The notes beneath the pieces were generated by a model. That model was not told the origin of the DNA, ran no database searches, and saw only the letters and a list, made by a program, of their open reading frames with translations. A stretch of 64,000 nt of DNA from Dehalococcoidia bacterium (GTDB taxonomy: Bacteria > Chloroflexota > Dehalococcoidia > Lucifugimonadales > Australimonadaceae), in NCBI GenBank assembly GCA_965247635.1, contig CBDFHJ010000010.1:261918-325917 (forward strand), read 5' to 3'. Below are positions 1,841 through 36,944 of this stretch, one piece after another (positions within the stretch are counted from its first letter, which is position 1; every line of letters begins with the position of its first letter). Made by a program: the position numbers and the translations under genes.

Positions 1841-2047
1841 GACGTCGACGCCAAAGCCCCAGCCGACTGTGGACATGGGCGTGCCGCCTGCTGACCCGGT
1901 AGAAACAGGGAATGCCTACGACTTCAAGTTCGGGACTGTAGACCGTCAGCGATAATGGGACACATATAAGGGTAGGAAAACCCGAGAGTCGGAGGGTGGT
2001 GTGAGCTCCTGAAATGAGGGTAGAGCTACCCACAGAAAGGAGCAGAT

Positions 2048-2455
2048 GTGTCCCAATTAGAAGTAAGCAAAGCAGAGGCCGCCGAGGAACGAAGCGAGCA
2101 GACCAGGTCTTTCGTCCGCACAGTGAAGGCGGCTGCCCGACGTAAGTACACCCCCGAAGAGAAGATCCGAATTGTTCTGGAGGGCTTCCGCCGCGAGGTC
2201 ACAGTCAACGACCTGTGCCGGCGGGAGGGGATCAAGCCCCACTCCTACTACTCGTGGACCAAAGAGTTCATGGAGGCGGGCAAGGAGAGGTTGACCCGTG
2301 ACTCGGTTCGGGACGCCACTCAGCATGAGGTAGGGCAACTCAAGCGAGAGAACGGGGAACTCAAGGAGCTAGTGGCCGATCTGTCGCTGGAGGCGTACCG
2401 TCTCAAAAAAACGGCCATCCCCATGCCCCAGGACGCCACCGGTACCAGCGGATGA
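2048..2455 (+). CDS. IS-A OrfA (HTH and leucine-zipper transposase N-terminal protein)
   Basis: 135-aa ORF identical to the orfA of other copies. Has a GTG start and a coiled-coil tail LKRENGELKELVADLSLEAYRLKK. Confidence 0.85.
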   Translation: MSQLEVSKAEAAEERSEQTRSFVRTVKAAARRKYTPEEKIRIVLEGFRREVTVNDLCRREGIKPHSYYSWTKEFMEAGKERLTRDSVRDATQHEVGQLKRENGELKELVADLSLEAYRLKKTAIPMPQDATGTSG

Positions 2456-3436
2456 GCGCCCCGGAGAAGGCAGAGGTAGTTACCAAAGTATCCTCGTCTC
2501 CCTCCCCAAGCGAAAGGTCCTCAGAGAGCTGGGCATCCCTAAGAGCACCTACTACCGGTGGCTCAGACGCCAAGACCAACAAGGACTTGAGGACCGACCA
2601 GGAGGCGATCAGCCACCATGGAACCGTCTTACTATTCAGGAAGAACGCTCAGTCCTGTTATCAGCCAGGGAGATGCCAGAGCTGAGCTGCCGTCAGCTGG
2701 CCGCGGGGATCACCGACAACCAGGGCTTCTCAGTCTCAGAGTCCAGCGTCTACCGTATCCTGGGCAGGGAGGGCCTAGTGAAGAGGCCTGAGATGCGGTT
2801 GGCCGCGGGGAAGGAGTACCACCTCAAGACCACAGGACCTCACCAGATGTGGGCCACCGATGCCTCATACTTCAGGGTGGTTGGGTGGGGCTACTACTAC
2901 CTGGTCACCGTTATGGACGACTACTCCCGCTTCATCCTGGCTCACAGGCTTCAGCAAGATATGACGGCCGACTCCTTCATCGAGGTGGTCCAGGATGCTG
3001 TGGACACGACCAGCATGGACCAAGTTCCAGTCACAGACCGCACCAGGCTGCTGAGTGACAACGGTCCAGGCTATGTCTCAAGAGCATTCAGGGACTACCT
3101 GGGGATGGTTGGCATCAAGCACATCCTAGCAACTCCTTTCCACCCTCAGACCAACGGGAAGTGGAGCGCTACCACCAGACCATCAAACGGGACGTCAACC
3201 AGGTGCCTTATGAGTTGCCCGCCGACCTTGAGGCTGCTATCGCGGCCTTCGTCAGCTACTACAACTACCGGCGCTATCACAAGGCTCTGGGCAACGTGAC
3301 ACCATCAGACGTGCTCAAGGGAAGACGGCAAGAGATCCTACAACGCAGGAAGGAGGTGAAGGCTCAAACCACCGAACGGCGACGACGCTACAACAGGGCC
3401 CTCAGGGAGCTCGCCAGACCTCCATCCAGCCCCTGA
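2452..3436 (+). pseudogene. IS-A OrfB (DDE integrase-like transposase), two 1-nt deletions
   Basis: Compared with intact orfB 19208..20194, one C is lost in the run tctcccctcccc and one in aagctggag. The reading frame breaks into 2452..2685, 2673..3299 and 3161..3436. Confidence 0.9.
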
Positions 3437-3479
3437 TCTCTCGGCTCCCAATGTGTCCCACTTTTGCTGGTTGCTAACA

Positions 3480-6406: not shown

Positions 6407-7270
6407 TCATGCTGCTGGTAGTCCGGCATAGAATCTCTGCTCATACGCCGCGGGTGACAGGAACCCCAGCCTGGCCTGGCGGCGCTGGCGGTTATAGAAG
6501 AGCTCGATATATTCCGTGATCTCTCGAGCTGCCTCCTGCCTGCTTCTGTAATGACGGTGGTGGACCAACTCCTGCTTGAGTGTAGCCCAGAAGCTCTCCA
6601 TCGGAGCATTATCAAAGCAGTTCCCCTTCCCGCTCATGGAAGATCGCAGGCCAGACCGCTCGAGAAGACCTCTGTATTCCTGGGAGCAATACTGACTGCC
6701 TCGGTCAGAGTGATGCATCAGGCCCCTCGCTGGACGTTTGGCTCTCAGCGCCCGGAATAGAGACTGACTAACCAGGTTCTTGGTCATCCGCTCTCCCATG
6801 GCATAGCCCACAATCTCTCCGGTGAACAGGTCCTTGTGACCCGCCAGATATAGCCAGCCCTCATCGGTCGGTATATAGGTGATGTCACTCACCCACACAG
6901 TGTTCGGCCTCCAGACCTTGAACTGCTGGCCCAATATGTTATCCGCAACCGGTAGTCTGTGCCCGGAGTCGGTGGTGGCCTTGAATCTCCTCTTCTGCCT
7001 GCAGCGTATGCCAAGCTTCTTTCGGATACGCTTGATGCGACAGATGCCCACCCGAACGCCATGCTCCGCCAGGTCGCGCTGTAACCGTTCCGGGCCATAG
7101 GTCTGTCTCGTCCGCTTGTGGGCTGCCCTGATCTCCAGCTCCAGCCGCACTTCCTCCTGTGCTCGCCTGGACGATGGCCGGTCCACCCAGGCATAGTAGC
7201 CACTGGCCGATACGTTCAACAACCGGCCCAAGACACATTTGGGGTAGTCGAGCCGCAGTTCTTTCATCAT
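6407..7270 (-). CDS. IS-E OrfB transposase
   Basis: 287-aa ORF with the motifs WVSDITYI, HHSDRGSQYCS and GNCFDNAPMESFWATLK. Confidence 0.85.
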   Translation of the reverse strand: MMKELRLDYPKCVLGRLLNVSASGYYAWVDRPSSRRAQEEVRLELEIRAAHKRTRQTYGPERLQRDLAEHGVRVGICRIKRIRKKLGIRCRQKRRFKATTDSGHRLPVADNILGQQFKVWRPNTVWVSDITYIPTDEGWLYLAGHKDLFTGEIVGYAMGERMTKNLVSQSLFRALRAKRPARGLMHHSDRGSQYCSQEYRGLLERSGLRSSMSGKGNCFDNAPMESFWATLKQELVHHRHYRSRQEAAREITEYIELFYNRQRRQARLGFLSPAAYEQRFYAGLPAA

Positions 7271-7560
7271 CGCGTACCGGGCAGCGACTCCCTGGCAAAG
7301 TACGCGGCTGCTTTTTTTAGTATGTCCCGCTCCATCTTCACTTTCGCCAGTTCCTTCTTCGTCCGCGCAAGGTCTATCTCTACTTCTGTCATGGGCCTGT
7401 ACGTCTTGCCCACATCTCCCAGTTTGCCAGCCCTATGTGCCTTCACCCAGTACCCTAATGTCGATGGCGGCAAGGACAGCCGGCGGCCTGCCTCTGGCAA
7501 TGATCGGGACAGATTGCAGCAGACCCGCGGGGGTTGACCATCCAACTTAAGCTCCTGCAC
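7267..7560 (-). CDS. IS-E OrfA
   Basis: 97-aa ORF ending KMERDILKKAAAYFA. It overlaps orfB by 4 nt. Confidence 0.75.
   Translation of the reverse strand: MQELKLDGQPPRVCCNLSRSLPEAGRRLSLPPSTLGYWVKAHRAGKLGDVGKTYRPMTEVEIDLARTKKELAKVKMERDILKKAAAYFARESLPGTR
7312..7318 (-). promoter_or_regulatory. Candidate -1 frameshift heptamer A AAA AAA (IS-E)
   Basis: T7 run on the plus strand. In the orfA frame it reads CTA AAA AAA GCA. Confidence 0.5.
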
Positions 7561-7635
7561 AGGGCTGTCATGGACACCGGCAGAGCGTGGGAGAGATGTC
7601 CATTCAGCTTGAGGCTCCTAATGCCAATCGTGCCT

Positions 7636-10600
7636 CTAGTCGTTTCGTCTCACCATTCGCACCACCTTTCGGACGACGATTGTCACGTCGTCAGTCAGGG
7701 ATCTGGGCGAACTATTGAACACCCATAGCGCCGCTATACGCGCGGCCGTAGTGAGGGCACGAGCTGTGGAATCGAGCGAGCTATGCAGCCAACGCACCGC
7801 CGTGGCTACCCCTCGTGCCATCGTTGTCGGCAGACTGTTGGCTCCCCAAAAGAACCTCGTCCAGCCCCACTTACGTTGCACCCCGGCTACTACGATGCCT
7901 CCGGTGATTGCGCCAATCGCCATACCCCCGATAGCTACGAGCGCCAGGGCCAGCGCAGAGAGTTGTGGGCCACGATCATTCGTCACCGAGGGCATCGGCC
8001 CGGTGGTCTCTGCCGTGTGCTCGGCCGTCGACGTATCGCCGAATTCAACAGGGTCGGACCTCGTGGTCCTGTCGCGGCCGACGTCGAGGTCTGTCAGGTG
8101 GACGAGGTCACGCAGCGCTACGGGGATGGGGCCGGTGAGCTGGTTGCCGCCGAGGTGAAGCTCGGTCAGGTCCGTCAGGTTCCCCAGCTCGGGAGGGAGC
8201 GGACCACTCAGCCCATTCGCACTCAAGCTGAGAACCGTCAGGTTGATGAGGTTGCCAAACTCGGCGGGGATGGGACCACTGAAGCGGTTGACGTTGAGAT
8301 GAAGCTCGGTCAGGTCTGTCAGGTCCCCCAGCTCGGGAGGGAGCGGACCACTCAGCCCATTCGCACTCAAGCTGAGAACCGTCAGGTTGATGAGGTTGCC
8401 AAACTCGGCGGGGATGGGACCACTGAAGCGGTTGACGTTGAGATGAAGCTCGGTCAGGTCTGTCAGGTTCCCCAGCTCGGGAGGGAGCGGACCGGTGAGC
8501 GCGTTGTTGTTGAGGCTCAGGACTGTGAGGCCAGTGAGATTGGCCAGTTGGAGCGGGATGGAGCCGCTGAGCTCGTTGCCCTCGATGCTAAGGTTTGTCA
8601 GGTCGGTGAGGTTGCCTAATTGCGGAGGGATCGCACCGCTCAGTTCATTGTTGCCGAGCGTGAGGATCGTCAGGCTTGTGAGAGTACCTAACTCCATCGG
8701 GATGGGGCCGTCGAGCAGGTTGTCGCTCAACGTCAACTCCCTCAAGTCGGTCAGGCCGCCCAGTTGGTGAGGAATCGCGCCGCTCAGTTCGTTGTTGTTG
8801 AGCGTGAGGACCGTCAGGTATATGAGTTCACCCAACTCCACCGGGATGGGGCCCATGAGCGTGTTGTCGCTCAGTGTCAGCTCCCTAAGATTCGTGAGGT
8901 GCCCCAGTTCGGGGGGGATGACGCCACTCAGCTCATTGTTGCCCAGTGTGAGTTCCCTCAGGTCCGTGAGGTTGCCCAGTTGGTGAGGAATCGCGCCGCT
9001 CAGCCCATTGTTGTTGAGCGTGAGGATCGTCAGGTCGGTGAGGTCGCCTAACTCCACCGGGATGGGGCCGTCGAGCTCATTGTTGCCCAGTGTGAGTTCC
9101 CTCAGGTCCGTGAGGTTGCCCAGTTGGTGAGGAATCGCGCCGCTCAGCCCATTGTTGTTGAGCGTGAGGATCGTCAGGTCGGTGAGGTCGCCTAACTCCA
9201 CCGGGATGGGGCCGTCGAGCTCATTGTTGCCCAGTGTGAGTTCCCTCAGGTCGGTGGGGTTGCCCAGTTGGTGAGGAATCGCGCCGCTCAGCCCGTTGTT
9301 GTTGAGCGTGAGGATCGTCAGGTCGGTGAGGTCGCCTAACTCCACCGGGATGGGGCCGTCGAGCATGTTGTCGCTCAACGTCAACTCCCTCAGGTCGGTG
9401 GGGTTGCCCAGTTGGTGAGGAATAGCGCCGCTCAGTTCGTTATTGTTGAGCGTGAGGATCGTCAGGTCGGTGAGGTCGCCTAACTCCACCGGGATGGGGC
9501 CGTCGAGCATGTTGTCGCTCAACGTCAACTCCCTCAGGTCGGTGAGGTTGCCTAGTTGGTGAGGAATCGCGCCGCTCAGCCCGTTGTTGTTGAGCGTGAG
9601 GATCGTCAGATCTGCCAGGTTGCCCAGTTCGACGGGGATCTGATCGGTGAGCTCGTTGTTGCTGAGATCAAGTTGCGTGAGGCCTGTGAGGGTACCTAGT
9701 TCTGCCGGGATCGATCCGGCTAGGTCGTTTCCGTAGAGATACAGATGCGTCAGAGCGGTCAGGTCGCCCAGCGATGCTGGGATCGGGCCGCTGAGCTCGT
9801 TGGCGTAGAGATAGAGATGTGTCAGAGCGGCCAGGTCGCCCAGCGATGCTGGGATCGGGCCGGTGAGCTCGTTGCTGTGCAGGTTGAGGAGCGAGAGGTT
9901 GGTGAGGTTGCCGAGCTCAGGAGGAATGGAGCCAGTGAGCTCGTTGCCTTGAAGCTGGAGATTCGTCAGGGCGGCCAGGTCCCCCAGCTCTGCGGGGATC
10001 GGGCCAGTGAACTCGTTGCTGTGCAGACTAAGGACCGTCAGGTCTATGAGGTTGCCCAGCTCAGCGGGGATGCGGCCGCTGAGTCCGTTGGCGTAGAGAT
10101 AGAGGAGCGTCAGGTCGGTGAGGTTGCCTAGCTCTGTGGGGATGAGACCGCTCAGCTCGTTGCTGTAGAGGTAGAGCCTTGTCACGTTGGTGAGGTTGCC
10201 GAGCTCCGCGGGAATTGGGCCGGTGAGCTCGTTGCCTTGAAGCTGGAGGTTCGTCAGGGCAGCCATGTCCCCCAGCTCAGTGGGGATGGAGCCAGTGAGC
10301 TCGTTGCTATGCAGGTTGAGGACCGTCAGGTTGGAGAGGTTGCCCAGCTCAGCGGGGATGGGACCGCTGAGTCCGTTGTTGAAGAGGTAGAGGAGCGTCA
10401 GGTCGGTGAGGTTGCCTAGCTCTGCGGGGATGGGACCGCTCAGCTCGTTGCTGTAGAGGTAGAGCCTTGTCACGTTGGTGAGGTTGCCGAGCTCCGCGGG
10501 GATTGGGCCGGTGAGCTCGTTGCTGTGCAGGTTGAGGAGCGAGAGGTTGGTGAGGTTACCGAGCTCAGGAGGAATGGAGCCAGTGAGCTCGTTGCTGTGC

Positions 10601-11625
10601 AGGTTGAGGAGCGAGAGGTTGGTGAGGTTACCGAGCTCAGGAGGAATGGAGCCAGTGAGCTCGTTGCTGTGCAGGTTGAGGACCGTCAGGTCTGTGAGAT
10701 TGCCCAGCTCTGCGGGGATCGGGCCGGTGAGTTCGTTGCCGTCGAGGTAGAGGAGCTTCAAGTTGGAGAGGTCGCCAAGCACTGCCGGGATCGGGCCGGT
10801 CAGTCCATCGCTGCGAAGATTGAGCGCCACCAAGTTGGTGAGATTGCCCAACTCAGGAGGGATTGAGCCGGTGAGACTGTTGTCGGCGAGGTAAAGCTCG
10901 AGCAGCCTGGGGAGGTCGCCCAGCTCTGCGGGGATGGAGCCGGTGAGTCCGTTGTTGAAGAGGTAGAGGAGCGTTAGGTTGGCCAGGTTGCCCAACTCAG
11001 GAGGGATTGAGCCGGTAAGATTGTTGCCGTCGAGGTAGAGTTCGGTCAGGTTAGAGAGGTTGCCCAGCTCAACGCGTAGGGAGCCGCTGATCTCGTTATT
11101 GCGGAGATTGAGGACCGTCAGGTCTGTGAGATTGCCCAGCTCTACGGGGATCGAGCCGCTGAGGTCTCTCCTTCTGAGCTGGAGTTTCGCGACCCTGCCA
11201 CGTGAAACGGAGACACCTTCCCAGTTAGCGATGGGCGTGTTGACGCTCCAGTCCAACACATTTTCCGGGTCGAGTGTTGCCTTGACATCAAGCAGGGTCT
11301 CGCAATTGGCGACGAGGCCTACCTCTTGGCCGGGCACGGCTATACCGTTGTCGCAGCCGTGGCTGTTGGCAAAAACGGGGTGCTCTAATGTGGCAGCAGC
11401 CGCAAACAGGAAGACGATAAAGGCAGCAATACCCAGCTTGACTGGGATGTTGCGGGTTCTCTGACTCGCGGTGGGAACGCGATCGGCTATCACCCCAAGG
11501 CCTCGGCGTGATAGCCGTTGTTTCAAGTTTGATTTGCCCAACGATCTTCCTTTGGCGACAATCCTCACCCATTCTTCCCAGTACGGAGACAGTGAAGCGC
11601 CAACTTCGACCGGAGAGCGCGCCAC
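7636..11625 (-). CDS. Giant membrane-anchored leucine-rich-repeat protein (plant-type 24-residue LRRs, receptor-like-protein architecture, no kinase)
   Basis: 1329-aa ORF. It has an N-terminal hydrophobic anchor (KLGIAAFIVFLFAAAA) and an LRRNT-like cap (CETLLDVKATLDPENVLDWSVNTPIANWEGVSV). About 43 repeats follow, of the form LxxLxxLxLxxNxL(S/T)GxIPxELGxLxx. Near the C-terminus is a TM segment (LSALALALVAIGGMAIGAITGGIVVAGV) and a tail of about 90 aa. Confidence 0.9.
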   Translation of the reverse strand: MARSPVEVGASLSPYWEEWVRIVAKGRSLGKSNLKQRLSRRGLGVIADRVPTASQRTRNIPVKLGIAAFIVFLFAAAATLEHPVFANSHGCDNGIAVPGQEVGLVANCETLLDVKATLDPENVLDWSVNTPIANWEGVSVSRGRVAKLQLRRRDLSGSIPVELGNLTDLTVLNLRNNEISGSLRVELGNLSNLTELYLDGNNLTGSIPPELGNLANLTLLYLFNNGLTGSIPAELGDLPRLLELYLADNSLTGSIPPELGNLTNLVALNLRSDGLTGPIPAVLGDLSNLKLLYLDGNELTGPIPAELGNLTDLTVLNLHSNELTGSIPPELGNLTNLSLLNLHSNELTGSIPPELGNLTNLSLLNLHSNELTGPIPAELGNLTNVTRLYLYSNELSGPIPAELGNLTDLTLLYLFNNGLSGPIPAELGNLSNLTVLNLHSNELTGSIPTELGDMAALTNLQLQGNELTGPIPAELGNLTNVTRLYLYSNELSGLIPTELGNLTDLTLLYLYANGLSGRIPAELGNLIDLTVLSLHSNEFTGPIPAELGDLAALTNLQLQGNELTGSIPPELGNLTNLSLLNLHSNELTGPIPASLGDLAALTHLYLYANELSGPIPASLGDLTALTHLYLYGNDLAGSIPAELGTLTGLTQLDLSNNELTDQIPVELGNLADLTILTLNNNGLSGAIPHQLGNLTDLRELTLSDNMLDGPIPVELGDLTDLTILTLNNNELSGAIPHQLGNPTDLRELTLSDNMLDGPIPVELGDLTDLTILTLNNNGLSGAIPHQLGNPTDLRELTLGNNELDGPIPVELGDLTDLTILTLNNNGLSGAIPHQLGNLTDLRELTLGNNELDGPIPVELGDLTDLTILTLNNNGLSGAIPHQLGNLTDLRELTLGNNELSGVIPPELGHLTNLRELTLSDNTLMGPIPVELGELIYLTVLTLNNNELSGAIPHQLGGLTDLRELTLSDNLLDGPIPMELGTLTSLTILTLGNNELSGAIPPQLGNLTDLTNLSIEGNELSGSIPLQLANLTGLTVLSLNNNALTGPLPPELGNLTDLTELHLNVNRFSGPIPAEFGNLINLTVLSLSANGLSGPLPPELGDLTDLTELHLNVNRFSGPIPAEFGNLINLTVLSLSANGLSGPLPPELGNLTDLTELHLGGNQLTGPIPVALRDLVHLTDLDVGRDRTTRSDPVEFGDTSTAEHTAETTGPMPSVTNDRGPQLSALALALVAIGGMAIGAITGGIVVAGVQRKWGWTRFFWGANSLPTTMARGVATAVRWLHSSLDSTARALTTAARIAALWVFNSSPRSLTDDVTIVVRKVVRMVRRND
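8161..8448. repeat. Two nearly identical 144-bp tandem units (two LRRs each) inside the LRR gene
   Basis: Direct reading: 8161..8304 and 8305..8448 differ at only a few bases. Confidence 0.85.
8765..9600. repeat. Array of 144-bp-period near-identical coding repeats inside the LRR gene
   Basis: The motif tggtgaggaatcgcgccgctcag recurs at 8981, 9125, 9269, 9413 and 9557 (exact 144-bp spacing) and at 8765. Confidence 0.85.
10511..10680. repeat. 72-bp tandem coding repeat (about 2.3 copies) inside the LRR gene
   Basis: gtgagctcgttgctgtgcaggttgaggagcgagaggttggtgaggttaccgagctcaggaggaatggagcca restarts at 10511, 10583 and 10655. Confidence 0.85.
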
Positions 11626-11697
11626 AGGGCCGCTTCAGATGCGCCCCAGCATAATTTCCCAAGATACAAGATAAATGTTGATGAATTATTAGCTAAT

Positions 11698-11727
11698 TGT
11701 AGACCAGCAGCGATAATGTGACACATC
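11698..11727 (+). mobile_element. Solo left-end remnant of an IS-A-related element
   Basis: tgtagaccagcagcgataatgtgacacatc matches the IS-A left repeat tgtagaccgtcagcgataatgggacacat. It is followed immediately by an IS-B end. Confidence 0.6.
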
Positions 11728-12090
11728 TGATTCAAGTGGACCCCATCATCAGGACAGCGGTGAGGCTAAAATAAGAGAGTCTACCGCTGGGGTGTCTCGT
11801 AAACCTTCATCCGATGGTAAGGCTCGTTGATGTTCCAGTAAACACCTTTGTGGGCTCACCGCTTGGAACACCTGACCCGGTGACCGATAGCCCAGGGCTT
11901 GATGGGGCCGCTCTTGGTTGTAGAAGGCCAGATAAGCCCCAATCCCCTTTCTGGCCTCAGTCCCATTTTGGTATGCCTTCAGGTACACCTCCTCGTACTT
12001 GATGCTGCGCCACAGCCGTTCCACGAAGACATTGTCCATGCACCGGCCCCTGCCGTCCATGCTCACTTGAACGCCTTGCGCCAGCAGCAT
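11728..12090 (-). pseudogene. IS3-family element IS-B, 3' fragment (last 113 codons of OrfB plus terminal repeat)
   Basis: Near-identical to 17434..17800 of the full IS-B copy. ORF 11749..12090 equals the OrfB C-terminus. Confidence 0.85.
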
Positions 12091-12094
12091 GGAC

Positions 12095-12688: not shown

Positions 12689-12731
12689 TGTTAGCAACCA
12701 GCAAAAGTGGGACACATTGGGAGCCGAGAGA

Positions 12732-13717
12732 TCAGGGGCTGGATGGAGGTCTGGCGAGCTCCCTGAGGGCCCTGTTGTAGCGTCGTCGCCGTTCGGTGGT
12801 TTGAGCCTTCACCTCCTTCCTGCGTTGTAGGATCTCTTGCCGTCTTCCCTTGAGCACGTCTGATGGTGTCACGTTGCCCAGAGCCTTGTGATAGCGCCGG
12901 TAGTTGTAGTAGCTGACGAAGGCCGCGATAGCAGCCTCAAGGTCGGCGGGCAACTCATAAGGCACCTGGTTGACGTCCCGTTTGATGGTCTGGTGGTAGC
13001 GCTCCACTTCCCGTTGGTCTGAGGGTGGAAAGGAGTTGCTAGGATGTGCTTGATGCCAACCATCCCCAGGTAGTCCCTGAATGCTCTTGAGACATAGCCT
13101 GGACCGTTGTCACTCAGCAGCCTGGTGCGGTCTGTGACTGGAACTTGGTCCATGCTGGTCGTGTCCACAGCATCCTGGACCACCTCGATGAAGGAGTCGG
13201 CCGTCATATCTTGCTGAAGCCTGTGAGCCAGGATGAAGCGGGAGTAGTCGTCCATAACGGTGACCAGGTAGTAGTAGCCCCACCCAACCACCCTGAAGTA
13301 TGAGGCATCGGTGGCCCACATCTGGTGAGGTCCTGTGGTCTTGAGGTGGTACTCCTTCCCCGCGGCCAACCGCATCTCAGGCCTCTTCACTAGGCCCTCC
13401 CTGCCCAGGATACGGTAGACGCTGGACTCTGAGACTGAGAAGCCCTGGTTGTCGGTGATCCCCGCGGCCAGCTGACGGCAGCTCAGCTCTGGCATCTCCC
13501 TGGCTGATAACAGGACTGAGCGTTCTTCCTGAATAGTAAGACGGTTCCATGGTGGCTGATCGCCTCCTGGTCGGTCCTCAAGTCCTTGTTGGTCTTGGCG
13601 TCTGAGCCACCGGTAGTAGGTGCTCTTAGGGATGCCCAGCTCTCTGAGGACCTTTCGCTTGGGGAGGGGAGACGAGGATACTTTGGTAACTACCTCTGCC
13701 TTCTCCGGGGCGCTCAT
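12732..13717 (-). pseudogene. IS-A OrfB, frameshifted at the NGK-LERYH catalytic-Glu region
   Basis: ORFs 12869..13717 and 12732..13007 together equal the intact 328-aa OrfB apart from a 1-nt deletion. Confidence 0.9.
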
Positions 13718-14121
13718 CCGCTGGTACCGGTGGCGTCCTGGGGCATGGGGATGGCCGTTTTTTTGAGACGGTACGCCTCCAGCGACAGATCGGCCACTAG
13801 CTCCTTGAGTTCCCCGTTCTCTCGCTTGAGTTGCCCTACCTCATGCTGAGTGGCGTCCCGAACCGAGTCACGGGTCAACCTCTCCTTGCCCGCCTCCATG
13901 AACTCTTTGGTCCACGAGTAGTAGGAGTGGGGCTTGATCCCCTCCCGCCGGCACAGGTCGTTGACTGTGACCTCGCGGCGGAAGCCCTCCAGAACAATTC
14001 GGATCTTCTCTTCGGGGGTGTACTTACGTCGGGCAGCCGCCTTCACTGTGCGGACGAAAGACCTGGTCTGCTCGCTTCGTTCCTCGGCGGCCTCTGCTTT
14101 GCTTACTTCTAATTGGGACAC
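13714..14121 (-). CDS. IS-A OrfA
   Basis: 135-aa ORF identical to 2048..2455. Confidence 0.85.
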   Translation of the reverse strand: MSQLEVSKAEAAEERSEQTRSFVRTVKAAARRKYTPEEKIRIVLEGFRREVTVNDLCRREGIKPHSYYSWTKEFMEAGKERLTRDSVRDATQHEVGQLKRENGELKELVADLSLEAYRLKKTAIPMPQDATGTSG

Positions 14122-14232
14122 ATCTGCTCCTTTCTGTGGGTAGCTCTACCCTCATTTCAGGAGCTCACACCACCCTCCGACTCTCGGGTTTTCCTACCCT
14201 TATATGTGTCCCATTATCGCTGACGGTCTACA

Positions 14233-14564
14233 GTGTTGTGGAGCCCCCGGTAATCCTGTCTGGGTTGCCACATAGGTTCCCACAGGTAGCGGGGCATCCC
14301 CCCCACTTCGTCCGTAGAGAAGCAGCGCAGTATTAGGGATTCGGGTTCCCACTCCGCCCAGGCCCAGAGTCTTCCCTCTTCAGCTTGCTCCGAATCCACT
14401 GAGTCAATCCAAGCTCCGTCAATTTCAAGAAACTTGCGTCCATGGGAGTTATTGCAGCCGTTAGGTTTCCTGGTTGGATTCCACTCCTTCCAATCGCCGT
14501 GATCCGGAGAGTGCTCTCTTCCCGGGTGAGGGAATTGGATGAAGCGTCGATTATCGGATGCCAT
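14233..14564 (-). pseudogene. Hypothetical protein, 3' end cut by IS-A copy 2 (second gene of the UDG-like operon)
   Basis: ORF 14214..14564 (MASDNRRFIQFPHPGREHSPDHGDWKEWNP..). Its last six codons (TVDRQR) belong to the IS end. The start overlaps the upstream gene by 14 nt. Confidence 0.5.
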
Positions 14565-17346: not shown

Positions 17347-17482
17347 AGCTAATTCCTCTCCTTTGCAAGTTAGGGATACTCTGAACAAGTCTGGGCATAG
17401 TAGCATAGGGAATAGCACTGTGTTCGGGGAGATTCAAGTGGACCCCATCATGAGGACAGCGGTGAGGCTAAAATAAGAGAGT

Positions 17483-18385
17483 CTACCGCTGGGGTGTCTC
17501 GTAACCTTCATCCGATGGTAAGGCTTGTGGATGTTCCAGTAAACACCTTTGTGGGCTCACTGCTTGGAACACCTGACCCGGTGACCGATAGCCCAGGGCT
17601 TGATGGGGCCGCTCTTGGTTGTAGAAGGCCAGATAAGCCCCAATCCCCTTTCTGGCCTCAGTCCCATTTTGGTATGCCTTCAGGTACACCTCCTCGTACT
17701 TGATGCTGCGCCACAGCCGTTCCACGAAGACGTTGTCCATGCACCGGCCCCTGCCGTCCATGCTCACTTGAACGCCTTGCGCCAGCAGCATGCTGGTGAA
17801 GGCCTCGCTGGTGAACTGGCTGCCCTGGTCGGTGTTGAAGATCTGTGGCCGACCCTTGCTCAAGGCCTCTTCCAGAGCCGCAACACAGAAGTCTACCTCC
17901 AGGGTGTTGGACAGCCGCCAGGCCAGCACGTAGCGGCTGTGCCAGTCCATGGTGGCCACCAAGTAGAGGAAACCCCGAGCCATGGGTATGTAGGTGATGT
18001 CGGTGGCCCACACCTGGTTGACCCGGTTGATCTCCAGCCCCCTGAGCAGGTACGGATAGACCTTATGCCCTGGGTTTGGCTTGCTGGTGTTGGGACGCCG
18101 GTAGATGGCCTCCAGGCCTATCAGCTGCATCAGCCGGCGGACCCGCTTGCGGTTGACCTGGTGTCCGTGATTTCTGAGCCAGGCAGTCATCCTTCTGGAG
18201 CCGTAGAAAGGTGTCTTCAGGTACTGTTGGTCTATGAGGGCCATCAACTCCAAGTCCTCGGCGCCGGCCTCGGTTGGCAGGTAGTACAACGAGGAGCGGC
18301 TGATACCCAGCAAGGCGCACTGGCGCACCAGAGACAGCTTCGGTTCTTCTCGGTCAATCATGGCCCGGCGTTGGGACCGGCTCAC
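17483..18385 (-). CDS. IS-B OrfB transposase
   Basis: 300-aa ORF with the motifs [24 protein letters not shown] and [19 protein letters not shown]. Confidence 0.85.
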
Positions 18386-18805: not shown

Positions 18806-19211
18806 GTCCCAATTAGAAGTAAGCAAAGCAGAGGCCGCCGAGGAACGAAGCGAGCAGACCAGGTCTTTCGTCCGCACAGTGAAGGCGGCTGCCCGACGTA
18901 AGTACACCCCCGAAGAGAAGATCCGAATTGTTCTGGAGGGCTTCCGCCGCGAGGTCACAGTCAACGACCTGTGCCGGCGGGAGGGGATCAAGCCCCACTC
19001 CTACTACTCGTGGACCAAAGAGTTCATGGAGGCGGGCAAGGAGAGGTTGACCCGTGACTCGGTTCGGGACGCCACTCAGCATGAGGTAGGGCAACTCAAG
19101 CGAGAGAACGGGGAACTCAAGGAGCTAGTGGCCGATCTGTCGCTGGAGGCGTACCGTCTCAAAAAAACGGTCATCCCCATGCCCCAGGACGCCACCGGTA
19201 CCAGCGGATGA
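18806..19211 (+). pseudogene. IS-A OrfA with native GTG start destroyed
   Basis: gatGTGtccc in other copies reads gcaGTccc here. The frame stays open upstream to an ATG at 18654 inside antisense IS-B sequence (ORF 18654..19211). Confidence 0.6.
19161..19167 (+). promoter_or_regulatory. A7 slippery run, candidate -1 frameshift site joining IS-A OrfA to OrfB
   Basis: CTC AAA AAA ACG in the orfA frame. The -1 frame is open from here to the orfB ATG at 19208 (..NGHPHAPGRHRYQRM). The orfA stop and orfB start also overlap as ATGA. Confidence 0.5.
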
Positions 19212-20194
19212 GCGCCCCGGAGAAGGCAGAGGTAGTTACCAAAGTATCCTCGTCTCCCCTCCCCAAGCGAAAGGTCCTCAGAGAGCTGGGCATCCCTAAG
19301 AGCACCTACTACCGGTGGCTCAGACGCCAAGACCAACAAGGACTTGAGGACCGACCAGGAGGCGATCAGCCACCATGGAACCGTCTTACTATTCAGGAAG
19401 AACGCTCAGTCCTGTTATCAGCCAGGGAGATGCCAGAGCTGAGCTGCCGTCAGCTGGCCGCGGGGATCACCGACAACCAGGGCTTCTCAGTCTCAGAGTC
19501 CAGCGTCTACCGTATCCTGGGCAGGGAGGGCCTAGTGAAGAGGCCTGAGATGCGGTTGGCCGCGGGGAAGGAGTACCACCTCAAGACCACAGGACCTCAC
19601 CAGATGTGGGCCACCGATGCCTCATACTTCAGGGTGGTTGGGTGGGGCTACTACTACCTGGTCACCGTTATGGACGACTACTCCCGCTTCATCCTGGCTC
19701 ACAGGCTTCAGCAAGATATGACGGCCGACTCCTTCATCGAGGTGGTCCAGGATGCTGTGGACACGACCAGCATGGACCAAGTTCCAGTCACAGACCGCAC
19801 CAGGCTGCTGAGTGACAACGGTCCAGGCTATGTCTCAAGAGCATTCAGGGACTACCTGGGGATGGTTGGCATCAAGCACATCCTAGCAACTCCTTTCCAC
19901 CCTCAGACCAACGGGAAGCTGGAGCGCTACCACCAGACCATCAAACGGGACGTCAACCAGGTGCCTTATGAGTTGCCCGCCGACCTTGAGGCTGCTATCG
20001 CGGCCTTCGTCAGCTACTACAACTACCGGCGCTATCACAAGGCTCTGGGCAACGTGACACCATCAGACGTGCTCAAGGGAAGACGGCAAGAGATCCTACA
20101 ACGCAGGAAGGAGGTGAAGGCTCAAACCACCGAACGGCGACGACGCTACAACAGGGCCCTCAGGGAGCTCGCCAGACCTCCATCCAGCCCCTGA
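19208..20194 (+). CDS. IS-A OrfB transposase, intact
   Basis: 328-aa ORF with the motifs MWATDASYF, LLSDNGPGYVS and HPQTNGKLERYHQTIK. Confidence 0.9.
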   Translation: MSAPEKAEVVTKVSSSPLPKRKVLRELGIPKSTYYRWLRRQDQQGLEDRPGGDQPPWNRLTIQEERSVLLSAREMPELSCRQLAAGITDNQGFSVSESSVYRILGREGLVKRPEMRLAAGKEYHLKTTGPHQMWATDASYFRVVGWGYYYLVTVMDDYSRFILAHRLQQDMTADSFIEVVQDAVDTTSMDQVPVTDRTRLLSDNGPGYVSRAFRDYLGMVGIKHILATPFHPQTNGKLERYHQTIKRDVNQVPYELPADLEAAIAAFVSYYNYRRYHKALGNVTPSDVLKGRRQEILQRRKEVKAQTTERRRRYNRALRELARPPSSP

Positions 20195-20237
20195 TCTCTC
20201 GGCTCCCAATGTGTCCCACTTTTGCTGGTTGCTAACA

Positions 20238-20729
20238 ATTCTATTGGTCGCCATGCGGTCGGTCCGCTACGCAGTCGTCACGCTGATCCCGGTTGGGCTG
20301 GTCGTGGCCTGGCTGTACGGTATCATGTACGCGGCGGGGTTCTCGCTCAACTTCGTCACCGCCACCATCGGCGCGATCTCGATCGGCGTGGGCATCGACT
20401 TCTCCATTCACATGACCGAACGCTTCCGAGAAGAGCTAGCGCGGTCACCAGGCAACACGCAGGCGCTGACGAGGGCGCTGGGTGGCACTGGCATGGCCCT
20501 GATTGCGTCTGCCGGATCGAGCATCGTGGGCTTCCTCATCATGAGCATGGCACCAATGCCACCCTTCGCCGCCTATGGGCTCTTGACGGCCGTGATGATA
20601 CTGTTGGCACTCATGGCCTCGGTCATCGTGCTTCCGTCGCTGCTGATCCTGGTGACTCCGGATTTGAAACCTGAGGCGGCTGCGGAGGTAGTTGGAGAAC
20701 GGCTGCAGAGGCTCAACGACAAAGCATGA
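20238..20729 (+). pseudogene. MMPL/RND-superfamily transporter, C-terminal fragment (5' part removed by IS-A copy 3)
   Basis: The frame starts at the IS end. It reads ..RSVRYAVVTLIPVGLVVAWLYGIMYAAGFSLNFVTATIGAISIGVGIDFSIHM.., typical of the second MMPL transmembrane domain. Confidence 0.7.
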
Positions 20730-26516: not shown

Positions 26517-26592
26517 GGGCGGATAGCTCAGTGGTGAGAGCACCTGCTTTACACGCAGGGGGTCGCAGGTTCGAGTCCTGCTCCGCCCACCA
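26517..26592 (+). tRNA. tRNA-Val: tRNA-Val (anticodon TAC), CCA encoded
   Basis: Cloverleaf folded by hand: acceptor GGGCGGA/TCCGCCC, D arm GCTC..GAGC, anticodon stem CCTGC/GCAGG with loop TTTACAC, T arm GCAGG-TTCGAGT-CCTGC, then discriminator A and CCA. Confidence 0.9.
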
Positions 26593-26710
26593 AACTGGAC
26601 AAAATCAAGAACTTTCACCTTAAGGTTCAAGTTGGCGCTATAGCTAAGCACTCACAAGGGACCAAGATTTGCCACGACACAACAAAATGCGCGTTAGCGG
26701 CCCGCAGAGG

Positions 26711-27316
26711 CTACCGATCGTGAGTTAATGGTACTCCTCCCGAAGCGGCGGTGAGTTCCAGAGGGAACTCGGTCTTGATAACCTGTCGCGCTCGGTCGAT
26801 CCCCTGTGCCTTGTCAAGCTGCTCAGTGGTCTCTACGCCCACTCGCATTCCTGAGAAATCCGGGAGTGGTCCCGCCTCAACGACGTTCACCCCTGTCCCG
26901 GCGAGATCAAGTTCGACAAGTCGCCTTGCCTCTCCCTGCAGCTCGCTGAGTGAATAGCGTCGATCAACGACTCGGACTGGGACGCTAGCTCGCAAAGCCT
27001 GGACAAGCGCGGCCATCGTGGGAGGGACTTGCCCTTTCCAGTAGAGGACCACTTCCCTTCTGGCGTTGTCGAGCCTTATCCCTGTGAAGCCTTGAAGTTC
27101 TGCTGTCTGCCAAAGCTCGTGGATCTGACTCGCCGCATCCGCCAGAGGCATCTGCGCAGCGATTCGAGGGTCTATCTCTCGAACGGAGTCGGCCTCCTCA
27201 TATACTGTCGGCGTGTTGCCGTCGTTGCTTCGGACGCTTAAGACCCCCGCAATGGCGATTGACGCCAACACAGCTACAAGAATAGCCACATATATAGGTA
27301 TAGGTTTCCGATGCAT
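26711..27316 (-). CDS. Membrane-anchored secreted protein, protease-prodomain-like pattern
   Basis: 201-aa ORF with N-terminal anchor IPIYVAILVAVLASIAIAGVL. No family recognised with certainty. Confidence 0.55.
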   Translation of the reverse strand: MHRKPIPIYVAILVAVLASIAIAGVLSVRSNDGNTPTVYEEADSVREIDPRIAAQMPLADAASQIHELWQTAELQGFTGIRLDNARREVVLYWKGQVPPTMAALVQALRASVPVRVVDRRYSLSELQGEARRLVELDLAGTGVNVVEAGPLPDFSGMRVGVETTEQLDKAQGIDRARQVIKTEFPLELTAASGGVPLTHDR

Positions 27317-27318
27317 GG

Positions 27319-27660
27319 TCAGGTGTTCCGCATCTGGTAAGGGACCCCAAAGAAGTACTTCCCGTCTCCCAATATCAGCTTTATGGCTTCCCGATCCCTC
27401 GCCGTCGCATACAGGATTTGGATGTCGGCCCTTCCGGGGCAGCTGAGCGTATTGATGTCCAGAACCGTGAATCCGGGGTTGATAGACTCTATCTGACGGA
27501 CGACTTCCTGGTGCTGGTCAATGACTCGCCGAACTTCGTCAGGGGTGGGCCATTGGTCGCACGGCACGCGGTGGGGCTTCGATCCGGACACAGTCTCCAT
27601 GAGCAAGTCACGGCCATAGTAGGTTCTTGCTTCCACGACTGTCAGGACGAGAATACCCAA
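27319..27660 (-). CDS. Hypothetical protein (TTG start; start uncertain)
   Basis: 113-aa ORF immediately upstream of 26711..27316. The frame is open about 20 more codons upstream (..FFKLRRLRYVFGLALLGILVL) but has no ATG or GTG there. Confidence 0.45.
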   Translation of the reverse strand: MGILVLTVVEARTYYGRDLLMETVSGSKPHRVPCDQWPTPDEVRRVIDQHQEVVRQIESINPGFTVLDINTLSCPGRADIQILYATARDREAIKLILGDGKYFFGVPYQMRNT

Positions 27661-28034
27661 CAGCGCTAGCCCGAAGACGTAGCGCAGACGCCGGAGCTTA
27701 AAGAACGTGGCATTTTCACTCTAAGACGCGCCTCACCAACGGAGGATTGGCCTACCTTTAGGCCATCATTCTACCATTTCGGAAACATGAAATCTGATGG
27801 ATAGGAGCACCCTGATCGGATATAATCTAACCTGGGTTTGCCGCTTCTTCCTGGGGGAATAGGGTCCAGTCTTCGTAGTTCCCCTAGTGGCTTCCTCCAT
27901 CGGGCTTATCCGTGACGGCGGCGCAGGCTTCAACATGGGGGTGTGTATCGCATGAACGCCAGAAGGTCCTCAGCAGGCATGTTCTGCCCCGACCTTCAAC
28001 GGTTCGAATCAATGGTATTCCGACTGGCTTTTAG

Positions 28035-32368: not shown

Positions 32369-32428
32369 TGTCCAACTTCCAGGACGTTGAGATCGTCAGG
32401 CAACGGTCGGGCTAAGGAAGGTATCGCC

Positions 32429-33061: not shown

Positions 33062-33067
33062 GGGAAC

Positions 33068-34942: not shown

Positions 34943-34975
34943 AGCACCGATGACGATGGGAAGGGCACGCAAAGA

Positions 34976-35647: not shown

Positions 35648-35716
35648 TACGGACTGATCATCGGGCGACAAAGGCCTCTTCACGGGCAGTTCATCGAGTT
35701 TAAGCGAGGGGCTCGA

Positions 35717-36920: not shown

Positions 36921-36944
36921 CTCACATGTCCAGGAGGTGACGAC

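What the first reader, a model, noticed from the sequence alone, without database searches (positions are those of the whole stretch)
7636..11625. Bacterial receptor-like protein made of ~43 plant-type LRRs with very recent internal repeat amplification
The repeat consensus is LxxLxxLxLxxNxL(S/T)GxIPxELGxLxxLxx. With the cap sequence (..LLDVKATLDPENVLDWSVNTPIANWEGVSV), it resembles the plant-specific LRR and LRRNT_2 pattern of plant receptor kinases and receptor-like proteins. It does not resemble the shorter bacterial LRR types.

The protein is anchored at both ends: an N-terminal hydrophobic segment and a C-terminal TM followed by a tail of about 90 aa. It has no enzymatic domain.

At the DNA level, blocks of 144 bp (two LRRs) and 72 bp are repeated almost identically (8161..8448, 8765..9600, 10511..10680). 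This implies recent expansion and a locus prone to slippage or recombination and to assembly collapse. The gene is boxed in by IS elements on both sides.
Basis: partly seen in the sequence, partly recalled or inferred. Interest (0 to 1): 0.65.

Follow-up and report, generated by a model that had tools for sequence, protein, structure and literature searches.

The report
Giant bacterial surface leucine-rich-repeat protein
An uncultured Dehalococcoidia bacterium encodes a membrane-anchored surface protein made of 43 perfect 24-residue "plant-type" leucine-rich repeats; it is real and its repeat number varies between genomes, but such repeat arrays are common in bacteria, so it is a new member of a known kind, not a gene borrowed from plants.

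Summary
ORF 7636..11625 (-) is intact and contains 43 uninterrupted 24-aa repeats with consensus LTxLxLxxNxLxGxIPxELGNLTx, the plant-specific (PS) LRR class. The best PDB matches are plant receptor ectodomains. DNA blocks of 144 bp (two LRRs) are 94-100% identical, and IS elements abut both ends.

Corrections:
- The true start is most likely the GTG at 11493 (1285 aa). The N-terminal hydrophobic segment then reads as a cleavable signal peptide, not a second anchor.
- The cap does not reach the Pfam LRRNT_2 threshold. It belongs to a widespread bacterial N-cap module (862 representative clusters).
- PS-type arrays occur in over 8000 bacterial or metagenomic proteins. These are closer (58-64% identity) than the one plant receptor alignment inspected (roughly half identical, by eye).
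- Orthologs in seven Dehalococcoidia MAGs share the ends but carry 41, 41, 42, 44, 48, 48, 55 and about 78 repeats. The near-identical blocks are shared with three of them, so the amplification is clade-level, not strain-private.

Best reading: a Sec-exported, C-terminally membrane-anchored surface binding protein whose repeat array expands, contracts and recombines. It fits the known "eukaryote-like repeat protein" class of symbiont genomes. Its ligand and habitat are unknown. The repeat number in this window could not be checked with long reads.

The parts
7636..11493 (-). Most likely CDS (1285 aa incl. signal peptide); the mechanical ORF extends to the GTG at 11625 (1329 aa)
   Evidence: Start: the GTG at 11493 aligns with the ATG of orthologs L005-L008, which have stop codons 13-15 codons upstream. 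A public gene call (P0136) starts at the same codon, MIADRVPTASQ.
11368..11493 (-). Predicted Sec signal peptide (42 aa): basic n-region, h-region LGIAAFIVFLFAAAATL, c-region EHPVFA|NS
   Evidence: Hydropathy gives only two hydrophobic segments in the protein. The V-x-A motif is conserved in orthologs as VSA|SS. Cleavage is inferred from the -3/-1 rule and was not tested.
11194..11367 (-). N-terminal cap: C-x16-C-E-T-LL-x-x-K-x-x-L-D-P...LDW...P-I-x-x-W-x-G-V-x-V...G-R-V
   Evidence: LRRNT_2 scores only 13.8 bits against a cut-off of 20.7. The 64-aa module matches 862 representative clusters, often several copies per protein. The AF2 confidence for this part is low.
8098..11193 (-). Array of 43 uninterrupted 24-aa plant-specific-class LRRs
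8962..9609 (-). Block A: 144-bp (two-LRR) unit repeated 4.5 times, 94-100% identical (units 23-31)
   Evidence: Also present in L001-L003, fewer in L004, absent in L005-L008.
8170..8457 (-). Block B: 144-bp unit repeated twice, 97-100% identical (units 39-42)
10474..10689 (-). Block C: three 72-bp units, 89-96% identical (units 8-10)
9898..10473 (-). Block D: units 11-18, a four-LRR (288-bp) higher-order repeat, 85-97% identical at offset 4
7963..8097 (-). Degenerate 44th repeat and a Thr/Ser/Pro/acidic linker without cysteines
   Evidence: The linker is duplicated in ortholog L005.
7879..7962 (-). Single transmembrane helix LSALALALVAIGGMAIGAITGGIVVAGV, followed by QRKW (positive-inside)
   Evidence: Kyte-Doolittle maximum 2.29. 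Conserved in all orthologs.
7639..7878 (-). 80-aa cytoplasmic tail, lineage-restricted, no known domain
   Evidence: No Pfam hit even at E<=10. Only 3 fragmentary relatives in 5.8 billion proteins. dN/dS mostly 0.26-0.55 for the 153-codon C-terminal module that contains the tail, with one close pair at 1.12. The AF2 model is uninformative, pLDDT 45.7.
11494..11732 (-). Conserved 5' leader/promoter region shared with orthologs up to the IS border
   Evidence: Homology with L001-L003 runs to 11732. One weak sigma-70-like match lies at 11724-11696, which is no more than chance.
7504..7635 (-). Conserved 3' flank, cut short at 7503/7504 by an IS3 insertion
   Evidence: The sequence that replaces the IS in other samples equals the native flank of L001-L004.
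6407..7503 (-). IS3-family element (orfA, then orfB with rve/HTH_21) abutting the 3' end of the gene
11733..12091 (-). Terminal fragment of another IS3-type element (rve_3); a 98% copy lies at 17431-17792
12689..14234 (-). Complete 1546-bp IS (HTH_Tnp_1 + rve); an inverted 99.9% copy at 1935-3479 brackets the LRR gene

Best explanation
The gene encodes a Sec-exported, type-I membrane-anchored cell-surface protein of an uncultured Dehalococcoidia (Chloroflexota) bacterium.

Domain order:
- A 42-aa signal peptide.
- A bacterial-type LRR N-cap.
- A rigid solenoid of 43 plant-specific-class LRRs displayed outside the cell.
- A flexible linker.
- One transmembrane helix.
- A conserved 80-aa cytoplasmic tail.

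It most likely works as a binding or adhesion module. The variable residues on the concave beta-sheet face of the solenoid would contact a ligand on a host, another cell or a particle. The TM-plus-tail module is a reusable anchor.

The array evolves by unequal recombination or slippage between near-identical 72/144/288-bp units, and by recombination between alleles. This changes repeat number always in whole 24-codon steps. The gene sits in IS-dense DNA without conserved synteny.

Shown: the architecture, the repeat class, the copy-number variation and the bacterial relatives. Inferred: signal-peptide cleavage, surface exposure, binding function, and any host association.
For: Architecture and repeat class:
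- 43 in-register 24-aa repeats, and only LRR Pfam families.
- Consensus matches the PS class, with variability concentrated at x-positions 3, 5, 7, 8, 10 (also 17 and 24). Scaffold positions are near-invariant.
- PDB sequence and fold matches are led by plant LRR ectodomains.
- The LRR part of the AF2 model is confident.

Topology:
- Only two hydrophobic segments exist: the signal-peptide h-region and one TM helix followed by QRKW.
- The start codon and a V-x-A cleavage motif are conserved in orthologs.

Bacterial, not plant:
- Orthologs lie on 2-3.3 Mb Dehalococcoidia MAG contigs.
- More than 8000 LRR relatives were found, many on Mb-size prokaryote-sized contigs.
- Ten-repeat segments are 58-64% identical, gap-free, to such proteins. 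The one plant receptor alignment inspected (RGFR1) is roughly half identical by eye; no figure was computed.
- The N-cap occurs in 862 representative clusters.
- Gene GC content equals that of its surroundings.

Functional constraint:
- The frame is kept over 41-55 repeats in seven other copies.
- dN/dS is 0.16-0.34 for the N-terminal module. It is mostly 0.26-0.55 for the C-terminal module, with one very close pair (few substitutions) at 1.12.

Adhesion reading:
- A variant in another genome (L009) has the same signal peptide and cap and the same TM and tail. Its ectodomain is a shorter LRR array plus cadherin and fibronectin-III domains.
- Between orthologous units, nonsynonymous changes are enriched at the concave-face x-positions: 154/56 nonsyn/syn versus 213/216 elsewhere.

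Dynamics:
- Whole-unit indels separate the alleles.
- L001 carries a large internal duplication.
- dS is 0.65-0.73 at the N-terminus but 0.14-0.15 at the C-terminus for the same genome pairs, which indicates a mosaic history.
- There is no synteny beyond 100-440 bp, and IS copies bracket the gene here and in L001.

Literature: LRR, cadherin and FN3 'eukaryote-like' proteins are enriched and laterally transferred in sponge-symbiont MAGs, including Chloroflexota/SAR202 (PMC8163846, PMC6306507).
Against: - There is no experimental or expression evidence. The sequencing runs found are of unknown type and coded origin.
- The habitat of the organism could not be established, so a 'host' is conjecture.
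- No signal-peptide predictor was available. An uncleaved signal anchor cannot be excluded.
- The substitution-pattern test uses non-independent genome pairs and could be inflated by mis-paired units or gene conversion.
- AF2 models of the cap and of the tail are low-confidence.
- One ortholog (L001) carries frame-disrupting lesions, and L009 carries a frameshift. Some copies may therefore be decaying, or those assemblies contain errors.
- The repeat number in this window is not verified by long reads.
Confidence: 0.6

Rival explanations
1. It is a signal-transducing receptor analogous to plant receptor-like proteins. Ligand binding by the LRR solenoid would be relayed across the membrane through the conserved 80-aa tail to an unidentified cytoplasmic partner.
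For: The topology (signal peptide, cap, PS-LRRs, TM, short tail) mirrors plant RLPs. The C-terminal module containing the tail is mostly under purifying selection and is conserved at 87-97% among orthologs. The same TM and tail are kept when the ectodomain changes.
Against: The tail has no recognisable domain and no confident fold. No kinase or regulator gene is adjacent: the neighbours are IS elements and synteny is absent. A conserved tail is equally expected of an anchoring or sorting module.
Confidence: 0.15
2. It is a gene recently acquired from a plant or alga (a captured plant RLP ectodomain).
For: The repeat class and best solved structures are plant receptors, e.g. GSO1 at 6e-160. There is a weak LRRNT_2-like pattern at 13.8 bits.
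Against: The closest relatives are bacterial or metagenomic, at 58-64% versus roughly half in the one plant alignment inspected. The cap belongs to a bacterial module with a different cysteine arrangement. The plant features are missing: LRRNT_2 at threshold, a C-terminal Cys cap and an island domain. Composition is native. Orthologs are restricted to Dehalococcoidia genomes.
Confidence: 0.03
3. It is a secreted or injected effector that acts inside a eukaryotic host cell, like the Xanthomonas LRR effectors XopAE, XopAC and XopL.
For: NCBIfam gives partial matches to XopAE, XopAC and XopL. LRR effectors are a known strategy.
Against: All these scores are far below the family cut-offs (318 vs 600, 244 vs 450, 126 vs 500) and reflect only generic LRR similarity. 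The protein has a Sec-type signal peptide and a C-terminal TM anchor. No secretion-system genes lie nearby.
Confidence: 0.04
4. The locus is a decaying or mis-assembled repeat tract without function: junk trapped in an IS graveyard, or a collapsed or expanded assembly.
For: The surroundings are almost entirely IS elements. L001 has -1 and -17 nt lesions and L009 a frameshift. Short-read contigs fragment the array. The window's own copy number is unverified.
Against: An open frame of at least 1285 codons is intact here and in seven other independently assembled copies, always in whole-repeat multiples. dN/dS is below 1 in both unique end modules in all but one very close comparison. Scaffold residues are near-invariant across 406 repeats. 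No indels relative to the window appear in contigs of a 98-99% identical strain.
Confidence: 0.08

Closest known systems
Plant LRR receptor-like proteins and receptor kinase ectodomains (GSO1, FLS2, MIK2, PEPR1, RGFR1, BRI1; RLPs such as RXEG1)
   Same: Same LRR class: 24 aa, LxxLxLxxNxL(S/T)GxIPxxLGxLxx. Sequence matches run gap-free or nearly so over 200-760 residues. The predicted solenoid fold is the same. The overall topology of signal peptide, cap, LRRs, TM and short tail is the same.
   Different: The gene is prokaryotic. There is no kinase. The N-cap does not reach the LRRNT_2 threshold and has its Cys pair upstream of the LL motif rather than in CxWxGVxC. There is no C-terminal Cys cap and no island domain. 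The array is far more regular and, to my knowledge (not checked here), longer at 43-78 repeats than plant receptor arrays of about 20-32. The tail is unrelated.
Bacterial 'eukaryote-like repeat' LRR proteins of symbiont and environmental genomes (e.g. those counted in sponge-symbiont Chloroflexota/SAR202 MAGs; PMC6306507, PMC8163846)
   Same: These are bacterial proteins with Pfam LRR domains and the same PS-type 24-aa repeat and N-cap module. They are often combined with cadherin, FN3 or protease domains. They are associated with mobile elements and lateral transfer in the literature.
   Different: This family has its own lineage-restricted TM-plus-tail anchor. Its ectodomain is LRR-only and exceptionally long. 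Its habitat is not established here, and no member has been studied experimentally as far as I could find.
Listeria internalins and Leptospira LIC LRR surface proteins
   Same: These are surface-exposed bacterial LRR proteins used for binding host molecules. The Leptospira LIC structures are the best non-plant bacterial PDB hits.
   Different: To my knowledge, internalins use 22-aa SDS22-like repeats and LPXTG or GW anchoring. Here the internalin NCBIfam model scores 17 bits against a cut-off of 1100. The LIC proteins score three to four times lower than plant ectodomains. This protein uses a C-terminal TM helix.
Xanthomonas type III effectors XopAE, XopAC and XopL
   Same: They share generic LRR similarity picked up by the NCBIfam models.
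   Different: The scores are well below the curated cut-offs. There is no effector domain and no T3SS context. A Sec signal peptide and a membrane anchor are present instead.

Membership tests
Plant-specific (PS) LRR class (Kobe-Kajava / Matsushima classification) | Repeat length 23-25 residues | tested here: met
   All 43 repeats are exactly 24 aa, as are all 406 repeats across the orthologs. The definition is from PMC2946307.
Plant-specific (PS) LRR class (Kobe-Kajava / Matsushima classification) | Consensus LxxLxLxxNxL(t/s)GxIPxxLGxLxx | tested here: met
   The window consensus is LTxLxLxxNxLxGxIPxELGNLTx. Counts out of 43: S/T at position 12 in 36, G13 in 42, I15 in 39, P16 in 42, L19 in 41, G20 in 41.
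Plant-specific (PS) LRR class (Kobe-Kajava / Matsushima classification) | Closest solved structures are PS-LRR solenoids | tested here: met
   The top 40 phmmer hits and top 50 Foldseek hits are almost all plant LRR-RK/RLP ectodomains.
Plant LRR receptor-like protein / receptor kinase | LRRNT_2 (PF08263) N-terminal cap | tested here: not met
   13.8 bits against a gathering cut-off of 20.7 (E 0.072). The ortholog cap of L005 gave no hit.
Plant LRR receptor-like protein / receptor kinase | Cysteine-pair cap after the last LRR, and (in many RLPs) an island domain | tested here: not met
   There is no cysteine after the array and no interruption of the 24-aa register.
Plant LRR receptor-like protein / receptor kinase | Signal peptide, single TM helix and cytoplasmic tail or kinase | tested here: inconclusive
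   Hydropathy supports one signal-peptide-like segment and one TM segment, with an 80-aa tail and no kinase. Cleavage and topology are inferred only.
Plant LRR receptor-like protein / receptor kinase | Encoded in a plant (streptophyte) genome, or phylogenetically nested among plant genes | tested here: not met
   Orthologs lie on 2-3.3 Mb Dehalococcoidia MAG contigs. The nearest relatives are bacterial or metagenomic. No formal phylogeny was made.
Xanthomonas T3SS LRR effectors (NCBIfam XopAE, XopAC, XopL) | Score at or above the curated NCBIfam cut-off | tested here: not met
   318 vs 600, 243.7 vs 450, 125.8 vs 500.
Internalins | Internalin NCBIfam model; 22-aa SDS22-like repeats; LPXTG or GW anchoring | tested here: not met
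   internalin_K scores 17 bits against 1100. The repeats are 24-aa PS type. The C-terminus is a TM helix plus tail without LPXTG.
Bacterial eukaryote-like repeat (LRR) proteins of symbiont genomes | Bacterial gene whose product is dominated by Pfam LRR domains | tested here: met
Bacterial eukaryote-like repeat (LRR) proteins of symbiont genomes | Organism is host-associated, and the protein acts on the host | not testable with these tools
   Run and sample names are coded. The MAG accessions were not found in the paper library.
Unnamed bacterial LRR N-cap module (CxNGIAVP...GLxADCExLL...LxW...PIxxWxGV) | Significant similarity of the 64-aa cap to the module in other proteins | tested here: met
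   862 representative clusters at E<=1e-3 and 183 at E<=1e-10, with up to 16 copies per protein. The motif is visible in P0145, P0172, P0186 and P0117.

The most novel reading that the evidence does not exclude
The family may be a horizontally exchanged, IS-bracketed 'variable surface receptor' cassette of uncultured Dehalococcoidia. A conserved TM-plus-tail anchor and a conserved signal peptide plus cap would frame an ectodomain that is continually remodelled. The remodelling would occur by unit slippage (41 to about 78 LRRs), segmental duplication, inter-allele recombination (mosaic dS) and domain swapping (LRR-only versus LRR-cadherin-FN3), with diversifying change on the concave binding face. 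That would make it a bacterial analogue of diversifying LRR recognition systems, used to track variable host or phage/partner ligands.
Probability: 0.12. Interest if true: 0.6.

Novelty: new member of a known kind. Interest (0 to 1): 0.35.

Why it matters
The finding shows that 'plant-specific' LRR arrays are a misnomer. Bacteria encode thousands of them, and this Dehalococcoidia family builds longer and more regular solenoids (43-78 repeats) than, to my knowledge, any plant receptor.

For annotation, such genes are systematically broken or truncated in short-read assemblies and protein catalogues. The full-length protein is absent from a 5.8-billion-protein collection. Long-read genomes are therefore needed to see them.

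Biologically, the family offers a clean natural series of repeat-number alleles on a conserved membrane anchor. This could be used to study how LRR solenoid length and concave-face variation tune binding. If the organism is host-associated, it could also be used to study how uncultured symbionts recognise or adhere to their hosts. It does not by itself overturn any current view.

Tried and rejected
- Exact-sequence look-ups of the 1329-aa product, of a neighbouring 870-aa product and of P0121 found nothing.
- Reads: only short-read Logan contigs of related strains (97-99% identical) were available. They break into pieces of about 320 bp or less inside the array, so the repeat number of this window could not be confirmed. 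Run kind (RNA or DNA) and organism are not disclosed, so neither expression nor habitat could be read off.
- The LRRNT_2 membership test failed at threshold.
- In the AF2 model of the cap plus 8 LRRs, the LRRs are confident but the cap is not (pLDDT 42-71), so the cap fold could not be compared.
- The AF2 model of the linker, TM helix and tail has pLDDT 45.7 and is uninformative.
- The promoter/terminator scan gave one promoter-like hit, no more than chance, and no terminator.
- No terminal inverted repeats were found for the adjacent IS3 with the default seed.
- A literature search for the MAG accessions gave nothing.
- Searches for a paper on horizontal transfer of PS-LRRs between plants and bacteria did not retrieve one in the held library.
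- Opposite-strand ORFs inside the array (e.g. 7783-8619 +, 278 aa) were rejected as by-products of a repeat that lacks stop codons on the other strand.
- The effector, internalin and plant-origin readings were considered and rejected (see the rival explanations and membership tests).

Full report
**1. What is in the sequence**

The minus-strand ORF 7636..11625 (1329 aa, GTG start) is intact. Printed in a 24-residue register from aa 145, it gives 43 consecutive repeats (aa 145-1176) without a single insertion or deletion. These are followed by one degenerate unit, a Thr/Ser/Pro-rich acidic linker, a 28-residue hydrophobic helix (LSALALALVAIGGMAIGAITGGIVVAGV), then QRKW and an 80-aa tail.

The repeat consensus is LTxLxLxxNxLxGxIPxELGNLTx. 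Scaffold positions are almost invariant: L4 43/43, N9 41/43, G13 42/43, P16 42/43. Entropy is highest at x-positions 3, 5, 7, 8, 10, 17 and 24.

Pfam reports only LRR families (LRR_1 1e-110, LRR_14, LRR_8, LRR_4) and no catalytic domain. NCBIfam gives only sub-threshold matches to LRR effectors and adhesins.

**2. DNA-level repeats**

TRF finds 144-bp arrays at 8121-8493 (94% matches) and 8930-9609 (95%), plus 72- and 288-bp periodicities. A unit-by-unit identity matrix gives more detail:
- Units 23-31 (8962-9609): 94-100% identical at offset 2.
- Units 39-42 (8170-8457): 97-100% identical.
- Units 8-10 (10474-10689): 89-96% identical.
- Units 11-18: a four-unit repeat at 85-97%.
- Median for all unit pairs: 64%.

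Two of its three ranges lie within a few tens of bases of these blocks. The 8765-9600 range starts about 200 bp early and takes in units 32-34, which are only 75-90% alike.

**3. Start codon and N-terminus**

Eight related loci were recovered from seven Dehalococcoidia MAGs. In four of them (L005-L008) the DNA upstream is homologous but contains stop codons. An ATG there aligns exactly with the GTG at window 11493, codon V45 of the long ORF..

From that start the first 42 residues have a basic n-region, a 17-residue h-region and a c-region ending V-F-A|N-S (V-S-A|S-S in the other clade). Hydropathy finds only this segment and the C-terminal helix. I therefore read the N-terminal segment as a cleavable Sec signal peptide, not a second anchor. 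This rests on the -3/-1 rule and was not tested with a predictor.

**4. Repeat class and nearest structures**

The 24-aa period and consensus match the plant-specific class as defined in PMC2946307: LxxLxLxxNxL(t/s)GxIPxxLGxLxx, 23-25 residues.
- The 40 best PDB sequence matches are almost all plant receptor ectodomains: GSO1 6e-160 (query 125-884 aligned to chain 60-820), FLS2, MIK2, PEPR1, RGFR1, ERL1/2, BRI1. SHOC2 and the Leptospira LIC proteins score far lower.
- An AF2 model of the cap plus eight repeats is confident in the repeats (pLDDT 86-96). Its top 50 Foldseek hits are likewise almost all plant LRR ectodomains.

The claim that the repeats are not of the short bacterial type is confirmed.

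**5. The cap**

LRRNT_2 scores 13.8 bits against a cut-off of 20.7. The cap of the L005 clade gives no hit. A HMMER scan of 1.84 billion representatives with the 64-aa cap found 862 clusters at E<=1e-3 (183 at E<=1e-10), often with several copies per protein and up to 16.

Examples are P0145, P0172, P0186 and P0117. They show the same motif, C-x-NGIAVP...GL-x-ADCE-x-LL...L-x-W...PI-x-x-W-x-GV...RV-x-x-L, heading blocks of PS-type LRRs. The cap is thus a member of a widespread, apparently unnamed, prokaryotic N-cap module. That module resembles LRRNT_2 in pattern but has a different cysteine arrangement.

**6. It is bacterial, and the kind is common**

The full-length search saturated at 8000 hits. 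The top 120 are 1200-2300-aa proteins from metagenomes and bacterial genomes, several on contigs of 2-6 Mb. They combine long PS-type arrays with metalloprotease, FN3, PPC, subtilase, Big_2, T9SS-sorting and other domains.

Ten-repeat segments of the window protein are 58-64% identical, without gaps, to such proteins. The one plant alignment inspected (RGFR1) is roughly half identical by eye; no figure was computed. The gene's GC content (0.58-0.61) equals that of the window. A recent plant origin is therefore not supported. A formal phylogeny was not attempted.

**7. The family and its variation**

The C-terminal 153 aa retrieve loci L001-L008, at 87-97% identity, on 2-3.3 Mb Dehalococcoidia contigs. 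All share the signal peptide, cap, linker, TM helix and tail. Repeat numbers are 43 (window), 48, 48, 55, 41, 42, 41 and 44, always whole multiples of 24 codons.

L001 would have 78 units. It carries a -1 and a -17 nt lesion in one unit, and a large internal duplication of the C...A...B block pattern.

The near-identical block A is present at the same position in L001-L003, is reduced in L004, and is absent from L005-L008. The amplification is therefore young relative to the family but not private to this strain. Gene conversion may also keep the units alike.

Differences between close alleles are mostly whole-unit indels around units 15-21 and 32.

The unique ends are mostly under purifying selection. 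dN/dS is 0.16-0.34 for the N-terminal module and 0.26-0.55 for the C-terminal module, except for one very close pair at 1.12 based on few substitutions. dS between the two clades is 0.65-0.73 at the N-terminus but only 0.14-0.15 at the C-terminus, which indicates a mosaic, recombining history.

Between orthologous units, nonsynonymous changes are enriched at the concave-face x-positions: 154 nonsynonymous to 56 synonymous, versus 213 to 216 elsewhere (Fisher p about 1e-8). The pairs are not independent, so this is suggestive only.

**8. The anchor module is reusable**

The tail has no Pfam match. It has only three fragmentary relatives among 5.8 billion proteins.

Locus L009 lies on a 667-kb contig at 6.9x coverage. 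It encodes the same signal peptide and cap, three LRRs, a frameshift, about 12 LRRs of another subtype, a cadherin domain, an FN3 domain, and then the same TM helix and a related tail. Cadherin and FN3 are extracellular adhesion modules, which supports an outside, adhesive role for the ectodomain carried by this anchor.

**9. Genomic setting**

Homology with the orthologs stops at 7503/7504 and at 11732.
- Below 7504 lies an IS3-family element. In other samples and in L001-L004 the native flank continues there, so this is a strain-specific insertion.
- Above 11732 lies an IS3 end fragment, and then a 1546-bp IS. That IS has five copies of at least 99.6% identity in the window, some partial. 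One of them (1935-3479) is inverted on the other side of the gene.
- In L001 the gene is also bracketed by two copies of an IS.
- No synteny is conserved between genomes beyond 100-440 bp.
- The gene ends are 97-99% identical in nucleotides between the window and L001-L004, which are separate species-level representatives. This hints at recent exchange, but ANI could not be computed here.

**10. Assembly caveat**

The available runs are short-read contig sets from related strains. The array is broken into pieces of about 320 bp or less. The full-length protein is absent from the public protein collection. The public gene calls of relatives that were examined (P0136, P0195) are frame-shifted fragments; P0136 comes from the low-coverage long contig of L009. 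No indels relative to the window were seen in a 98-99% identical strain, but the copy number of 43 is unverified.

**11. Interpretation and novelty**

The best-supported reading is a Sec-exported, C-terminally anchored surface LRR binding protein whose array length and binding face vary by recombination. It fits the known category of bacterial 'eukaryote-like repeat' proteins. In the literature these are enriched, together with cadherin and FN3 proteins, in sponge-symbiont MAGs including Chloroflexota/SAR202, and are laterally transferred (PMC6306507, PMC8163846).

Whether this organism is host-associated could not be determined. The finding is a new, unusually long and regular member of a known kind, not a categorically new system.

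Noticed in passing
window 1935-3479, 12689-14234, 18806-20240, 44968-46380, 56022-57567: Five copies of one 1546-bp IS (HTH_Tnp_1 orfA plus rve orfB), some partial, are at least 99.6% identical, which implies very recent transposition bursts. Window 1-22 kb is almost entirely IS elements (Mutator, several IS3, IS5/IS1182-like, IS1-like).
   Followed up: partly
window 26517-44490: An integrative-element-like region lies next to tRNA-Val (26517-26592). It holds several large ORFs without Pfam hits (29219-32368, 33068-34942), a TrwB-like coupling-protein match (37034-39646), a Replic_Relax protein (39643-41295), a serine recombinase (41957-43681) and a truncated second one (43507-44490).
   Followed up: no
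L009 6001-8107 (ENA ERZ26167216, 667-kb contig): A family variant has the same signal peptide and cap and the same TM and tail, but its ectodomain is a short LRR array plus cadherin plus fibronectin-III. It is interrupted by a frameshift, on a contig of only 6.9x coverage.
   Followed up: partly
L001 3962-10462 (CBDFIE010000003.1): An allele with about 78 LRRs was produced by a large internal duplication of the C..A..B block pattern. One unit carries a -1 (CCC to CC) and a -17 nt deletion between CTCAC repeats. This is either a pseudogene or an assembly error.
   Followed up: partly
L007 and L008 (both on CBDFJL010000003.1): One MAG holds two paralogous copies (41 and 44 LRRs) inside a segmental duplication. 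It spans at least 6.5 kb upstream (97-99.6% identical) and 3.2 kb downstream (99.7%). The copies lie about 2 Mb apart.
   Followed up: no
L005 about 10300-10560: The juxtamembrane linker (VEFGDTSTAEHTAE.TGPTPSVTNDSGPQLSAL, 33 aa) is tandemly duplicated in this ortholog. Repeat instability therefore extends beyond the LRR array.
   Followed up: no
window 7639-7878 (tail) and the L009 tail: The cytoplasmic tail looks like three degenerate amphipathic repeats of an (A/V)-A-T-A-V-R-like motif (ARGVATAVRWL / ARALTTAARIAALWV / DDVTIVVRKVVRMV). The pattern is clearer in L009. No fold could be predicted.
   Followed up: partly
window 7783-8619 (+), 9745-10131 (+), 10525-10866 (+) and others: Long opposite-strand ORFs lie inside the LRR array. 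They are by-products of a repeat unit that lacks stop codons in antisense frames and should not be annotated as genes.
   Followed up: yes
window 46806-50930: An ABC-2 type transporter operon has one ATPase and three consecutive ABC2_membrane_2 permease paralogs. It lies between IS copies.
   Followed up: no
window 7400-11800 in runs X3, X5, X14 (sample S2): A 98-99% identical strain is abundant (unique-flank k-mer depth about 95-360). It lacks both IS junctions of the window. The depth of block B contigs is about 4x that of the unique flanks, which hints at more copies of this block or a second gene copy in that strain.
   Followed up: partly
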